From a virus (taxonomy: Duplodnaviria > Heunggongvirae > Uroviricota > Caudoviricetes): a stretch of 64,000 nucleotides of DNA. The translations under genes were made by a program, and so were the position numbers. Where the stretch lies: the IMG/VR virus record IMGVR_UViG_3300045016_000151, positions 82,078 to 146,077 of that record; one strand, written 5' to 3'. Numbering within the stretch: the stretch's first letter is position 1; every line of letters starts with the position of its first letter. Below, in pieces: positions 39,462 to 57,654 of the stretch. Under the pieces are notes generated by a model, which was given only the letters and a program-made list of their open reading frames with translations, searched no databases and was not told where the DNA came from.

Positions 39462-40337
39462 GTGGAAAATCAACAAGATGCGTTGTTAGATACTTCTAAC
39501 ACGTCATTGATTAACATGGCCGATACCAGACCTATAGCTTTTTGGGCCGATAACAAAAAGAACGAATTCTTAAAAACGTTTAAAGAACGTGTTGAAGTGG
39601 CAGCGTGGTTATTGGAACATACAGCGCACGTAATTATAGATAAAGCGATTGATCGCAAATTTATAAGTAACAAACATACAAGAAATATACAATGTGTGAG
39701 TGCAGTTATTACTAATAGTAACTGCGGTTCTTTGCACGGTAGAAATTGGGATGAGTTACAAAAAATTGCCGAAGAACGTGCCAATACCGTGCTAAAAAAA
39801 CTACCGATCTTAAAAAATGCCATTAAAGTAGTTGATGCAGAAACATTCAAACTATTGGAGCAATATGATAGAGATCAAAAATCCCTACAAGAAAAGAAAG
39901 ATACGTTGGATGAATTGTCTGGTACAATAGATATGAATGAGCTAGATCAAAACATGACAATCGGTGCTTTCAGAAAATATGTCAAAAAGATCGAAGCTGA
40001 TCGTGCTTCATTATTGGCTCAGCTTTCACGGGAAGGACGTGCTTTGCAAGAATTAGATGTTACTATTTCTAAACGACTATATGCAGGTATTCCTGGAATA
40101 TCGGAAGCTATCATTAAAGTTATAAATCAACATTATGAACGTATCACTGCGTTGCAGGCTATGACACGGCGTGTGGAAGAGCAAGTGAAATTCGGTGACA
40201 GTGCACAAGCTCTAGAATTATTAAAGCATTTTGAAAAAGATGAGGCAATAGTTTCCGATACAGTACAGGCGGAGTTTGACGAGGCGTTGAAGAAATTAGC
40301 GTTGTATAAAAAACCTAAAACAAAAGGTAAAAAATGA
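39462..40337 (+). CDS. coiled-coil hypothetical protein
   Basis: 291 aa, AAGGA SD. Confidence 0.7.
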   Translation: MENQQDALLDTSNTSLINMADTRPIAFWADNKKNEFLKTFKERVEVAAWLLEHTAHVIIDKAIDRKFISNKHTRNIQCVSAVITNSNCGSLHGRNWDELQKIAEERANTVLKKLPILKNAIKVVDAETFKLLEQYDRDQKSLQEKKDTLDELSGTIDMNELDQNMTIGAFRKYVKKIEADRASLLAQLSREGRALQELDVTISKRLYAGIPGISEAIIKVINQHYERITALQAMTRRVEEQVKFGDSAQALELLKHFEKDEAIVSDTVQAEFDEALKKLALYKKPKTKGKK

Positions 40338-40567
40338 CTTATTGTTTGGATAATGATAAATTCACTGACTGCTATAAGTCCATGGTGCGCCCCACGGGAT
40401 ACGAACACCACAACTTCGACGCTCCTTTTCATATCACACACAAGGGTAATGTAAAAGCTTTCATACGTGGCACCACCGTAGACAGTGATGGTGAAGTGTG
40501 TAAGAGTAATGCCATTATTGAGCATAATTGGTTATATAATACACAAATAATAAGGATAAAAATATGA
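40334..40567 (+). CDS. hypothetical protein
   Basis: ATGA-coupled. Confidence 0.5.
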   Translation: MTYCLDNDKFTDCYKSMVRPTGYEHHNFDAPFHITHKGNVKAFIRGTTVDSDGEVCKSNAIIEHNWLYNTQIIRIKI

Positions 40568-41961
40568 ACTACGGGTTATACACAGATATGTATCAACTTG
40601 TTATGGCACAAGGATATTTCCAGATGAGCCGCCATAATGACCGAGCCACGTATGATTATTTTTATCGACGTAACCCATACGGCGGCGGTTATGCATTATT
40701 TGCCGGATTAAGTGAGTTGTTAGATATCTTAAAGAATTGGAAATTTACCGAAGAAGATACAACGTATTTATTTCATCAAGGAATTTTTCACGCAGGCTTT
40801 TTGAGTTATTTACGTGACTTTCAATTCAAAGGCGATATCTATTCTGTGCGTGAGGGCGAAGTTGTTTTTCCAAATGAACCTATACTGCGAATTGAAGGTG
40901 GTTGGCTAGAGTGTCAATTATTAGAAACTCTGTTGCTCAACATTATCAACTTCAGTACATTGATCGCAACTAAAGCAGCACGTATAAAACAAGTTGTAAA
41001 CGAACGACCTATAATTGATATGGGATTACGACGTGCACAGGGGTTGGGAGGTATTTTGGCGAGTAAAGCCGCTATTATTGGTGGTGCAACTTCAACTTCT
41101 AATGTTTATGCCGCAAAGAAATACGATCTCTTAGCGGTAGGTACAATGGCTCATGCCTGGATACTTGGTTTTGAAAACGAGTTAACTGCATTTCGTGCGT
41201 TTGCTAAAGAATATCCGCACAACACAGTGTTGCTAGTTGATACTTATGATACATTAAAAAGTGGTGTGCCGAATGCAATAATCGTAGCTAAAGAACTTGA
41301 AGCCAACGGATGTAAATTACATGGTATCCGATTAGATAGCGGCGACTTTGCGTACCTAAGCAAAAAAGCAAGAAATCTTCTTGATGAGGCCAATTTGTCT
41401 TATGTAAAAATAGTTGCATCTAATCAATTAGATGAATATGTAATTCGTAGTCTAGAAGAACAGGACGCTCCTATTGATATTTATGGTGTAGGCACAAATT
41501 TAATTATCGGTGCTGGCGCTGGAGCTCATGATGGTGTATATAAACTATCATCGATTCAAGGACAGCCGAAAATGAAATTTTCAGATAATCCTGAAAAAGC
41601 TACATTACCCGGACCAAAAGATCTGTATCGTTATTATAATAACGACGGCACTTTTTATGGCGACGGTATTACTTGCGCAGGAATGCCTCCACCGAAGAAG
41701 TTGTATGATCCTGTTTATCCAGATAGATTATCAGATGTTGGAGATCTAAAAAACGAAGCGCTTTTAATAAAGTGCGTGGAAAATGGAAAGGTTGTAATAA
41801 CTAATCCTATCGTACGTACATCAAGACTTTATGCGGAAAGTCGTCTGCAGAGCTTAGGAAAAGAATTCACTAGATTTGAAAACCCACATATCTATAAAGT
41901 AGGTGTAAGTGATATATTACTTAAGCATAAAACAGATATGATTGCCGCACTTAGAAAATAA
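40564..41961 (+). CDS. pncB: nicotinate phosphoribosyltransferase
   Basis: TDMYQL.M, GLRRAQG, GTMAH, VDTYDTLKSG, GIRLDSGD, GVGT. Confidence 0.92.
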   Translation: MNYGLYTDMYQLVMAQGYFQMSRHNDRATYDYFYRRNPYGGGYALFAGLSELLDILKNWKFTEEDTTYLFHQGIFHAGFLSYLRDFQFKGDIYSVREGEVVFPNEPILRIEGGWLECQLLETLLLNIINFSTLIATKAARIKQVVNERPIIDMGLRRAQGLGGILASKAAIIGGATSTSNVYAAKKYDLLAVGTMAHAWILGFENELTAFRAFAKEYPHNTVLLVDTYDTLKSGVPNAIIVAKELEANGCKLHGIRLDSGDFAYLSKKARNLLDEANLSYVKIVASNQLDEYVIRSLEEQDAPIDIYGVGTNLIIGAGAGAHDGVYKLSSIQGQPKMKFSDNPEKATLPGPKDLYRYYNNDGTFYGDGITCAGMPPPKKLYDPVYPDRLSDVGDLKNEALLIKCVENGKVVITNPIVRTSRLYAESRLQSLGKEFTRFENPHIYKVGVSDILLKHKTDMIAALRK

Positions 41962-54614: not shown

Positions 54615-55120
54615 AATTTGGGCTCGACAGGAATCGATTGAATGAGATGTAGTATAAATGCATAGCGTCAGTGAACCGATGACGTAAAATCCGTTTAAAC
54701 AATAAGTGCAGAAGAAAAATCTGACATGACTTTTGAACAGGCTTTGGCACTAGTCGAAGTACCTGTAGCCGTAATGGCCTAATCGCTGACAAGAGAACTC
54801 GATAGCAAGGCCCCAATTGCTATGAGTGCGATAAACGGGGATGTAGGCCACTTGTCCGAATACAAGTAAGTCCTAAGTATGTAGTTGTAGCAGACGACCG
54901 ACTAAAAATACAACTAACTATGTGAATGAATTTTTATTAAATCCATGCAAGACCGGGGTTCGACTTAGTATTAGGTCGCTTATATAGAAATATATATGAC
55001 AAAAGAAAGCTCAAACGGCGAAACCCCTGCTAATAGCGAGGTAACACCGTCGGGTATGTAAAGAAATTTAACAGCTCGCTATCGACTTATAGAACTCTAA
55101 AGTATAAAAACTATGAGTTA

Positions 55121-55543
55121 CTAGGATAGTTGGAAAAATTCTTTTTCAAATTGTTTTTTTCGTCGTATTTGTTCTTTGGTGTATTTACCGTTGCGAACAG
55201 TCAATTTAGCATAATATCTTATAATGAATTTCATCCGACGTGATTTCTTTGGATGTCTAATATAAGGCAATAATTTATGCATTACGTCTATTGCATCAGC
55301 ACGAGTTATTTTCCAACTATATGCAATCATGTAATTTCGCTTTTGACGGCCATGATTACAAATAATTCCGCCAAAATATCGTTGTAACGGTAATAAAATT
55401 TCTAAACACGTATTAGCTACAGATAACACAGGTGATCTGTACTCTCCGGAGTGATTATGTGTTAATGTAACTGAACCCTCACCATCGACGATGCCGGCGG
55501 TCCAACTATAAATGCTTTCTATCTTCGTAGTCTTTTTGGACAT
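55121..55543 (-). CDS. single-motif LAGLIDADG homing endonuclease, antisense within intron
   Basis: WTAGIVDGEGSV motif; AGGAG SD before MSKK. Confidence 0.88.
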   Translation of the reverse strand: MSKKTTKIESIYSWTAGIVDGEGSVTLTHNHSGEYRSPVLSVANTCLEILLPLQRYFGGIICNHGRQKRNYMIAYSWKITRADAIDVMHKLLPYIRHPKKSRRMKFIIRYYAKLTVRNGKYTKEQIRRKKQFEKEFFQLS

Positions 55544-55567
55544 GGTAATCTTTTCTCCTATATCCAA

Positions 55568-55709: not shown

Positions 55710-55784
55710 TGCGGGGTACGTTGGAAATGGTCCCCACGAGAGTCTCATAAGCTCTGCATGCAGGTTCAAGTCCTGTCCCCGCTA
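55710..55784 (+). tRNA. tRNA-Met/Ile2(CAT), atypical D arm
   Basis: Acceptor TGCGGGG/CCCCGCT (1:72 mismatch), CT-CAT-AA loop, good T arm; weak D stem. Confidence 0.65.
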
Positions 55785-55787
55785 CAA

Positions 55788-56178: not shown

Positions 56179-56529
56179 ATGACAAAAGAACAATACAATC
56201 AACTAAAATCCGAGCTTAAAATCTTAGCTCAATTTCTTCATTACGACAACTATAATTCACGTGCCTACCAATCACAAAATGCCGGTGGCAAAAAGAAACC
56301 AAAAGAAATACCAGAACAATTAGAAAAGCAATTTAAGGAATTAAATATAAGTCCTTGGAGAGCTCACTATGAGTATAGACATAAACACATATTTATGTCT
56401 TTACAACGTGGTAAAAAACGTGAACAAATCGAAAGACCAAGACAAGGTAACGAACCCGATGAAAATTACATCAAAAAACTTGTGGAGCAGTATGAAACAG
56501 TTGAACAGACTGTATGTGTTAGTGCGTGA
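56179..56529 (+). CDS. hypothetical protein
   Basis: GGAG SD; overlaps the PTH2-like gene. Confidence 0.65.
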   Translation: MTKEQYNQLKSELKILAQFLHYDNYNSRAYQSQNAGGKKKPKEIPEQLEKQFKELNISPWRAHYEYRHKHIFMSLQRGKKREQIERPRQGNEPDENYIKKLVEQYETVEQTVCVSA

Positions 56530-56791
56530 AGACTTAAATCTTACATACGCTGGAGTTCAAGCTGGACATGCAGTAGCAAAATTTATGTTAGAATTCCCAG
56601 GTATATGGTGTAATACTACACTTATATATTTGCGGATAAAGAATGAGGATAAGCTTATAGAATGGCGTGACAAATTAATTGTCAGAGGTATTCCGTATGC
56701 TTTATTTAGAGAACCTGATTTAATGAATCAGGCAACTGCCGTCGCTGTATTGAGCGATGGTAATATATTTAAAAATGTAAAATTATTGTGA
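56492..56791 (+). CDS. PTH2-like peptidyl-tRNA hydrolase homologue
   Basis: LYVLVR.DL....AGVQAGHA, F.EPD....TAVA. Confidence 0.65.
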   Translation: MKQLNRLYVLVREDLNLTYAGVQAGHAVAKFMLEFPGIWCNTTLIYLRIKNEDKLIEWRDKLIVRGIPYALFREPDLMNQATAVAVLSDGNIFKNVKLL

Positions 56792-57079
56792 CAGTAAAAA
56801 ATGAAACTATGCAGTTAAAACCACCAAATGGGCCGGGGATCCATAGCCTCGTTAACCTCCTTTGGGCTGGCGTGTTGCCCATTAACCTTATTGGTTAGCT
56901 ATGAACAATCATAGTACTGTTCGCCAGAACTGCATTCCAGAATGATTTAGGTTAATTGCGAAAGCCCCTGGAACAGGGGAGTCCTACGCATACTTACCCG
57001 TCGTAGGTGAGCCTGTCTAATTATGGGTTAGACCCAGGGTCGATCCAAAAGGTAAGCTCGATCGAAATTAACTATTGTC
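56790..57079 (+). ncRNA. unclassified ornate RNA candidate (about 290 nt)
   Basis: At least nine helices including crossing pairs and a CTTACC/GGTAAG kissing loop. Confidence 0.6.
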
Positions 57080-57150
57080 TGCGTGGCCGAGAACGAAATA
57101 AGCACTAGTCTCTAAAACTAGTTACACGGGGTCGTTCCCCGTCGCAGACA
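57077..57150 (+). tRNA. amber-anticodon tRNA (CTA) with non-canonical D/T loops
   Basis: GTCTGCG/CGCAGAC; CTAGT-CTCTAAA-ACTAG; T loop GTCGTTC; no GG in D loop. Confidence 0.75.
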
Positions 57151-57155
57151 CTTAT

Positions 57156-57483
57156 TCCTCTGTGGTGAAATGAAAAGAGATGTATATTTGTTACGTATTA
57201 ATATACATTACTAAGTCACTAGATTGAATTAGTAGGTGACAGCATCGAGTTACCAGTATAGACTGTTCTTTATGGTCAAGTTCAGAGCAAGTGTATTGGA
57301 AGAATAACTAGGATGAAGCGATTAAACCAATTGTCATGCGACGAACGTTTAGTTGCGTAGCGGCTGAATATTCAATTGAAAATTAGAATGGGATCTTTAC
57401 TACTCCCTGTCGAACGCTTACAAACGGAACTGACTGTCAGTAGACTAAAAGTAATGCTGCAGGTTTGAGTCCTGCCAGAGGGA
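57156..57483 (+). ncRNA. expanded/interrupted tRNA-like RNA (328 nt)
   Basis: Acceptor TCCTCTG/CAGAGGG, T arm GCAGG/CCTGC, CATTACT/AGTAATG helix enclosing about 237 nt of structured insert. Confidence 0.65.
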
Positions 57484-57654
57484 TAAATTTTTATCCGGAC
57501 GGCGTATTATTCTCTCGACGCCTAATAAATATGGGGAGATTATCAGTCCTGTCATAAACAATTCCGCTCAATGAGCACCGGAGCCATTTGATAGGACTTT
57601 TGCATTATATATGGCTCCGCCACGATTACAAAAAACTTTATATCAGGAGATATA

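What the first reader, a model, noticed from the sequence alone, without database searches (positions are those of the whole stretch)
56790..57079. Ornate 290-nt RNA with a pseudoknot and kissing loops, abutting the amber tRNA
Seen: ATGCAGTT/AACTGCAT (56809/56928); ATGGG/CCCAT crossing CTGGCG/CGCCAG; CTATGA/TCATAG; GTTAATT/AATTAAC (56951/57066); CCCCTG/CAGGGG; GTCTAA/TTAGAC; and two hairpins (CCTACG/CGTAGG and TCGATC/GATCGA) whose loops CTTACC and GGTAAG are complementary. It is GC-richer than its flanks and has no ORF. A possible end pairing GACAGT/ATTGTC would sequester the first bases of the suppressor tRNA. Inference: an undescribed large ncRNA or ribozyme, possibly gating suppressor maturation.
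Basis: seen in the sequence. Interest (0 to 1): 0.72.

Follow-up and report, generated by a model that had tools for sequence, protein, structure and literature searches.

The report
Two orphan phage RNAs, one mobile
The "290-base RNA" beside a lake phage's amber-suppressor tRNA is really two separate ~125-base folded RNAs. The first belongs to an uncatalogued, tightly knotted RNA family that also occurs in an unrelated phage with no tRNA nearby, so it is unlikely to be a switch for the tRNA, and what it does is untested.

Summary
The helices are real: 12 compatible helices of at least 6 bp against a mean of 5.1 in shuffles (0/300). The element lies in the tRNA array of a 215-kb lake phage that uses the standard code. 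It is not one RNA but two stem-closed units.

D1 (56809-56935) has homologues in one relative (L015), in an unrelated GC-rich phage with no tRNA nearby (L112), and probably a reduced one (L027). They give 7 compensated pairs, fixed linker lengths and an invariant core.

D2 (56950-57073, the kissing loops) has no homologue, and a rival fold of similar energy exists.

Gating of the tRNA is not supported. The end pairing has p~0.001 against 0.93-0.999 for the acceptor stem, and 8 of 10 related lineages have the amber tRNA without D1.

There is no Rfam hit, and HDV/theta, hammerhead, group II and GOLLD/ROOL features fail. Best reading: two independent small RNAs released from the tRNA-region transcript, like T4 RNAC/RNAD. 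D1 as a new ribozyme: about 15%. The scan noted the same sequence before in a near-identical genome, without follow-up.

The parts
56492..56791 (+). Pth2-like peptidyl-tRNA hydrolase gene, the fixed left border of the slot
   Evidence: Pfam PTH2 E 0.0018, below the cut-off; PHROG hydrolase E 5e-10; syntenic in relatives
56809..56935 (+). D1: stem-closed pseudoknotted RNA, member of an uncatalogued family
   Evidence: Homologues L015:5801-5895, L112:2327-2421(-), probable L027:2856-2920
56809..56816 (+). D1 closing stem P1, 5' strand (pairs 56928-56935)
   Evidence: 4 of 7 pairs compensated across 3 sequences
56824..56827 (+).
   Evidence: CCAA/TTGG in the window and L015, GGAA/TTCC in L112 in a hand segmentation; the model-fitted alignment shows one swap, one gap and one broken cell; absent in L027
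56828..56833 (+). D1 helix P2, 5' strand (pairs 56877-56882)
   Evidence: 2 of 6 pairs compensated, three pair types at the outer pair
56834..56851 (+). D1 hairpin P3 (5 bp, variable loop)
   Evidence: G-C/G-U shifts in three sequences; two A-U pairs in L027
56867..56875 (+). D1 pseudoknot strand (pairs 56919-56927); invariant core with U.U, G.U and U.G pairs
   Evidence: Invariant in window, L015 and L112; one double change and three changes to WC pairs in L027
56883..56915 (+). Two hairpins inserted in D1; dispensable
   Evidence: Absent from all three homologues
56936..56939 (+). Discriminator-like base plus CCA directly after the D1 closing stem
   Evidence: Seen in sequence; not kept in homologues; most tRNA genes of this phage lack an encoded CCA
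56950..57073 (+). D2: stem-closed multi-way junction with possible kissing loops (56993-56998 with 57051-57056); orphan, two competing folds
57077..57150 (+). tRNA with CUA (amber) anticodon and degenerate D and T loops
   Evidence: ARAGORN, Rfam 43.6 bits; acceptor stem probability 0.93-0.999

Best explanation
The interval holds two independent small structured RNA genes, D1 and D2. They sit in a fast-turnover cargo slot between the Pth2-like gene and the amber tRNA of a jumbo-phage tRNA array. SHOWN: two stem-closed units spaced like tandem tRNAs (14 nt and 3 nt); D1 is a conserved, separable, probably horizontally spread family with a chained pseudoknot fold; the slot's contents differ from lineage to lineage. 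INFERRED: both are co-transcribed with the array and cut out by the ordinary tRNA-processing route. RNase P cleavage at the tRNA 5' end would free the 3' end of D2, and the 7-9 bp closing stems would serve as acceptor-like ends that are trimmed to and resist nucleases. They would then accumulate as stable RNAs acting in trans. For D1, the invariant non-canonical core and fixed linkers most likely form a rigid binding surface for a host or phage protein or small ligand, as a decoy or aptamer-like effector during infection. It does not control the tRNA.
For: D1 occurs without D2 in L015, L027 and L112. There are 7 pairs with double changes, 0/500 column shuffles reach this and slid controls give 0-2; RNAalifold independently recovers P1, P2 and P3. 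Linkers of 10, 3, 1 and 3 nt are identical in window, L015 and L112. G-U pairs indicate the + strand. Other lineages carry unrelated stem-closed RNAs in the same slot or almost nothing (13-35 nt). No sigma-70-like promoter lies on the + strand before D1, and only 17 nt separate it from the upstream stop. The phage encodes a CCA-adding-type enzyme (PolyA_pol). [quoted passage not shown] RNase P processes non-tRNA substrates including phage RNAs (PMC11143913).
Against: Only three confident D1 sequences, so there is no real covariation statistic. D1 has no T-arm, so RNase P recognition of its own 5' end is unproven. L027 lacks P1 and Pa. In L112 D1 lies directly before a ribosome-binding site, which also fits a cis role. 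No binding partner is identified. D2 has no comparative support.
Confidence: 0.55

Rival explanations
1. D1 is a new class of small self-cleaving (or otherwise catalytic) ribozyme that cuts the polycistronic transcript, for example upstream of a tRNA or between phage genes.
For: Compact core of about 70 nt, crossing helices, strict linker lengths and invariant non-WC nucleotides. These are the criteria used to pick ribozyme candidates (PMC10085705). It occurs in unlike phage contexts. tRNA-associated ribozymes exist in phages (theta, PMC10879173).
Against: No known ribozyme family or core matches. In PMC10085705 none of ten non-hammerhead motifs chosen on such criteria cleaved. A closing stem around the whole motif would hold internal cleavage products together. 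L027 replaces the invariant wobble core with WC pairs.
Confidence: 0.15
2. D1 is an anti-ribosome-binding-site RNA: its loops display CAU and a copy of the 16S anti-Shine-Dalgarno tail and pair with translation starts.
For: The window and L015 share invariant CATAGC and ACCTCCTTT blocks, a mirror of SD plus start codon. The L112 loops are also pyrimidine-rich. Similar motifs were noted in other phage tRNA spacers (unchecked earlier findings).
Against: L112 and L027 have neither CAT nor the anti-SD. Part of the motif is paired in helix Pa. The best-conserved bases lie elsewhere.
Confidence: 0.12
3. D1 is a cis-acting element (ligand-sensing aptamer, or nuclease-blocking or processing structure) for the downstream gene or tRNA.
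For: It abuts the tRNA in L015 and L027 and lies about 10 nt before an SD in L112. Pseudoknotted aptamer-like architecture.
Against: The downstream partners are unrelated (a tRNA, D2, an unknown ORF). There is no shared expression platform. D2 separates it from the tRNA in the window.
Confidence: 0.1
4. One reading: one 290-nt RNA whose ends pair and mask the amber tRNA's 5' end, gating suppression.
For: Adjacency; the end pairing appears when the 290 nt are folded without the tRNA. Engineered riboswitches can control RNase P processing through the leader (PMC8925977 abstract).
Against: Pairing probability about 0.001 with the tRNA present. The arms are not conserved in relatives. The amber tRNA is present without D1 in 8 of 10 other lineages and without D2 in all 10. 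The genome is not TAG-recoded.
Confidence: 0.03
5. D2 is a bistable switch, or an oligomer-forming RNA whose two complementary loops kiss between molecules.
For: Two mutually exclusive folds of its 3' half lie within about 2-3 kcal/mol once the kiss is added. Intermolecular kissing loops build GOLLD and ROOL cages (bioRxiv 10.1101/2024.12.08.627333).
Against: Single sequence; the energy model does not treat kissing properly; it is far smaller than GOLLD or ROOL.
Confidence: 0.15

Closest known systems
Phage T4 RNAC and RNAD (small RNAs of the T4 tRNA region; PMC3014915, PMC9697503)
   Same: A pair of small non-tRNA RNAs of unknown role inside a phage tRNA cluster; similar size (about 120-140 nt, size from my own knowledge).
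   Different: No sequence similarity to any INPHARED phage. D1 has a chained pseudoknot and also occurs away from tRNAs. T4 RNAs are shown to be expressed; these are not.
Theta (minimal HDV-like) ribozymes (Kienbeck et al. 2024, PMC10879173)
   Same: Pseudoknotted RNA beside a phage tRNA, often a suppressor tRNA.
   Different: Theta lies 3' of the tRNA and has the nested HDV fold with a catalytic C in J4/2. D1 lies 5', has a different strand order and gives no HDV-descriptor hit. This phage is not recoded.
GOLLD and ROOL large ornate RNAs (bioRxiv 10.1101/2024.12.08.627333)
   Same: Phage RNAs near tRNA islands with pseudoknots and kissing loops, function unknown.
   Different: Much larger (GOLLD often over 800 nt); no Rfam match; here two ~125-nt units that separate in evolution.
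Group II intron domain 5 / group I intron P3-P7 core
   Same: 57009-57041 looks like a D5 hairpin (AGC, 2-nt bulge); the D1 strand order resembles P3-P7 with an optional P8-like hairpin.
   Different: Only 3 bp lie between the triad and the bulge (5 in group II, own knowledge), with G opposite the triad G and no domains 1-4. No group I core sequence or G-site; no Rfam hit.
C-rich anti-SD small RNAs (cuckoo family, RsaE/RoxS; from own knowledge and earlier scan notes)
   Same: An exposed CCUCC-type motif in two of four D1 copies.
   Different: The motif is not conserved in L112 or L027; the scaffold is a pseudoknot rather than simple hairpin repeats.

Membership tests
Theta / HDV-like ribozyme | Nested double pseudoknot P1-P2-P3-P1.1 with catalytic C in J4/2 | tested here: not met
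   Descriptor search: 0 hits on both strands of the 290 nt, in L015, in L112 and 3' of the tRNA; no Rfam hit
Theta / HDV-like ribozyme | Cleavage site at the tRNA 3' end | tested here: not met
   Element lies 5' of the tRNA
Hammerhead / twister / twister-sister / pistol / hatchet / glmS | Match to family covariance model or core motif | tested here: not met
   No Rfam match at E<=10 in the window or E<=2 in homologue loci; no CUGANGA
Any self-cleaving ribozyme | Site-specific self-cleavage | not testable with these tools
   Needs an in vitro assay
GOLLD / ROOL | Rfam model match and length of several hundred nt | tested here: not met
   units are about 125 nt
GOLLD / ROOL | Location near phage tRNA islands | tested here: met
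   35 tRNAs in the window; not diagnostic
Group II intron / derived ribozyme | D5 with catalytic triad 5 bp from a 2-nt bulge, preceded by domains 1-4 | tested here: not met
   3 bp spacing and a G.G mismatch at the triad (structure); no Rfam hit
T4 RNAC/RNAD-type stable RNAs | Small non-tRNA gene inside a phage tRNA cluster | tested here: met
T4 RNAC/RNAD-type stable RNAs | Sequence homology to rnaC or rnaD | tested here: not met
   No blastn match among 50,697 phage records
T4 RNAC/RNAD-type stable RNAs | Accumulates as a discrete processed RNA | not testable with these tools
   Needs RNA from infected cells or a matched metatranscriptome
Top-half tRNA mimics / YrlA | Acceptor stem plus T-arm | tested here: not met
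   Closing stems are present but there is no T-arm in D1 or D2; no YrlA or tRNA match
C-rich anti-SD sRNAs | Conserved single-stranded CCUCC motif | tested here: inconclusive
   Present in window and L015, absent in L112 and L027

The most novel reading that the evidence does not exclude
D1 is the first member of a new class of small catalytic (self-cleaving or processing) RNA with a chained double-pseudoknot fold, spread horizontally among unrelated phages.
Probability: 0.15. Interest if true: 0.88.

Novelty: new variant of a known kind. Interest (0 to 1): 0.55.

Why it matters
D1 is a compact RNA family absent from Rfam. Its core is identical between an AT-rich jumbo phage and an unrelated GC-rich phage, which points to a selected three-dimensional function. 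It is small enough to test at once: three natural variants of 95-130 nt can be transcribed and assayed for cleavage, probed and crystallised. New ribozyme or aptamer classes are rare. Even a negative result would give a tractable, comparatively supported example of the orphan small RNAs of phage tRNA clusters, an open question since T4 RNAC and RNAD. The slot before the amber tRNA also appears to be a hot spot for swapping structured-RNA cargo.

Tried and rejected
Rfam at gathering and E<=10: nothing but tRNAs.

blastn against INPHARED phages and PLSDB plasmids with the element, D2, and the L015 and L112 copies: only chance-level hits. Three were opened and lack the second pseudoknot strand or a model match.

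Pattern scans: kissing-hairpin pattern in viral contigs, 13 hits, none with the D2 architecture. D1 patterns in viral, metagenome and genome contigs gave none or only chance hits, except the one that found L112 (its other hit, L111, is a chance match inside a coding gene). The core pattern was not found in 401 genomes of one bacterial phylum. No second copy in the phage's own genome.

Model R1 was built with a mis-registered structure and was discarded; R2 and R3 are correct.

Sequencing runs: no RNA holder listed, which says nothing on expression. DNA contigs showed one variant in the element (56964 G>T, outside the named helices), uninformative.

Minus-strand 9-codon ORF with a strong SD: present in the window and L015 only, rejected as the conserved feature.

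A Pyl-type reading of the amber tRNA was not pursued; orthologues in relatives are canonical.

L052:8879-8972 has a superficially similar crossing arrangement but no model match, so it is not counted as a homologue.

No paper naming the core motif was found. The supplement of the 10,000-viral-RNA catalogue (PMC10690425) is not held, so prior listing there cannot be excluded.

Full report
SETTING. The window is part of a 215,016-bp, 37% GC phage contig with a terminal overlap and 38 detected tRNA genes. All runs holding the DNA are lake-water metagenomes. TAG ends 19 of 237 ORFs of at least 100 codons and mostly has short in-frame run-on, so the code is standard. The flagged 290 nt fill the gap between a Pth2-like gene (stop 56789-56791) and a tRNA with a CUA anticodon at 57077-57150.

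OBSERVATION. Twelve mutually compatible WC helices of at least 6 bp were found, against a mean of 5.1 in dinucleotide shuffles (0/300), and each half passes on paired bases on its own. GC is 45.5% against 33.7% upstream. Rfam has no match at E<=10. The proposed end pairing is the one part that fails: folded with the tRNA it has probability about 0.001, while the acceptor stem has 0.93-0.999.

TWO UNITS, NOT ONE. Homologues of the flanking proteins gave ten other lineages with the order Pth2-like gene, variable slot, amber tRNA. The slot is 13 to 918 nt long. Its cargo differs among lineages, often as stem-closed ~100-150-nt folds unrelated by blastn. Only the 5' half (D1, 56809-56935) recurs. 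L015 carries a 95-nt copy that lacks the two hairpins at 56883-56915 and abuts the tRNA directly, with five compensated pairs. L027 carries a reduced 65-nt core in the same slot. Its model score is weak (E 0.2-0.7), but the required pairings arise in only 6 of 20,000 shuffles of that slot. A pattern built from these three found L112, a 31-kb GC-rich phage contig with helicase and DUF932 genes and no tRNA in the 10.6-kb locus examined. There D1 sits between a stop codon and the next ribosome-binding site and scores 30.3 bits (E 2e-4) on a model not trained on it. It also has a 9-bp closing stem and an exact 10-nt core match that were not in the pattern. No homologue of the 3' half (D2, 56950-57073) was found anywhere.

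D1 FOLD. Segmenting the copies gives this order: closing stem P1; strand a (56824-27); strand b (56828-33); hairpin P3; a 10-nt linker; a' (56862-65); 3 nt; strand d (56869-75); 1 nt; b' (56877-82); an optional insert; ACU; d' (56919-25); 3 nt; P1'. Helix a/a' crosses b/b', which crosses d/d', making a chained double pseudoknot. On the model-fitted alignment of three copies, 7 pairs show double changes, 0 of 500 column shuffles reach this, and slid controls give 0-2 (related sequences can exceed such shuffles, so this is support, not a p-value). RNAalifold recovers P1, P2 and P3 unaided. In L027 it is rebuilt as nine WC pairs with one double change, which agrees with it but is not significant. 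Helix a/a' rests on one sequence (two swaps by hand, one in the fitted alignment) and is the least certain. Fixed linkers and invariant non-canonical pairs between phages of very different GC content are what a ribozyme or ligand-binding fold looks like (inference).

D2. An alternative long hairpin that absorbs both 3' hairpins is 8 kcal/mol more stable in the nested model, and the kiss returns about 5.7. The fold of the 3' half is therefore undecided. A group II domain-5 resemblance noted earlier fails on triad-to-bulge spacing and context.

MECHANISM. The units are spaced 14 and 3 nt apart, within the 1-21 nt range between tandem tRNAs here. No + strand sigma-70-like promoter precedes D1 (the phage may use its own promoter type). 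D1's stem is followed by a single base and CCA, though homologues do not keep this. I infer co-transcription and release as two stable RNAs by tRNA-processing nucleases, acting in trans, with D1 binding a protein or ligand through its rigid core (0.55). Self-cleavage (0.15), SD masking (0.12) and a cis role (0.10) remain open. tRNA gating is very unlikely (0.03). None of the processing or function steps is shown.

COMPARISON. [quoted passage not shown] It is not a theta ribozyme (PMC10879173), not GOLLD or ROOL, and not any Rfam family. One curiosity: nine bases of the invariant d' region (CUGUUCGCC) equal a conserved stretch of bacterial 23S rRNA, which from my own knowledge is the A-loop, helix 92. 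By rough arithmetic a 9-mer from the core matches somewhere in rRNA about 5% of the time, so I give it little weight.

VERDICT. Real, undescribed in Rfam, and better supported than most orphan RNAs because D1 has covarying homologues in unlike phages. The scan recorded the same sequence once before in a near-identical genome (e1-5372025, first-reader note only), and other orphan RNAs before amber tRNAs in another lake phage. Interest 0.55.

Noticed in passing
window 57156-57483: About 330-nt element with tRNA-like ends (7-bp acceptor, T-arm) and a long structured insert, 6 nt after the amber tRNA; no Rfam hit. L018:5308-5590 has a similar layout with a different insert.
   Followed up: partly
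window 57490-57650; same place in L015, L016, L017, L018, L025, L052, L054, L056, L057, L118: A conserved structured leader (recurring TCCTGTC/GACRGGA and GGAGC/GCTCC stems) precedes the coiled-coil, OmpA and ABC-transporter operon in nearly all relatives. No Rfam hit; candidate riboswitch or regulatory RNA with many homologues already in hand.
   Followed up: no
L015:5301-5795: Three further stem-closed structured RNAs in tandem upstream of the D1 homologue; no Rfam hit.
   Followed up: partly
L052:8879-9080; L017:5312-5460; L025:1300-1437; L020:5340-5540: Lineage-specific structured RNA cargo in the slot before the amber tRNA. L052 has two units, the first with crossing helices; L025 folds with z -3.96.
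   Followed up: partly
window 57077-57150: This phage's amber tRNA has degenerate D and T loops, whereas orthologues in most relatives are canonical; it may be decaying or repurposed.
   Followed up: partly
genome G000 40196-41473 (outside the window): A 425-codon ORF ends in TAG followed by 317 open in-frame codons, by far the longest run-on after a TAG in the genome; candidate target of amber read-through.
   Followed up: no
window 55710-55785: tRNA-Met(CAT)-like gene missed by ARAGORN; weak Rfam hit, syntenic with tRNA-Met in relatives.
   Followed up: partly
window 55118-55567 (-): LAGLIDADG-like ORF on the opposite strand at the position where relatives have an uninterrupted tmRNA.
   Followed up: no
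L027:2015-2123: YrlA-like RNA (47 bits, below the gathering score) next to tRNA-Met.
   Followed up: no
L113:4001-4382: A GC-rich Acidobacteriota MAG contig also has a Pth2-like gene followed 13 nt later by a CUA-anticodon tRNA, so this pairing extends beyond the phage clade.
   Followed up: partly
L112:2428-2730 (-): The gene upstream of the L112 D1 copy has motifs resembling an M15-type zinc peptidase by eye; no Pfam or PHROG hit.
   Followed up: partly
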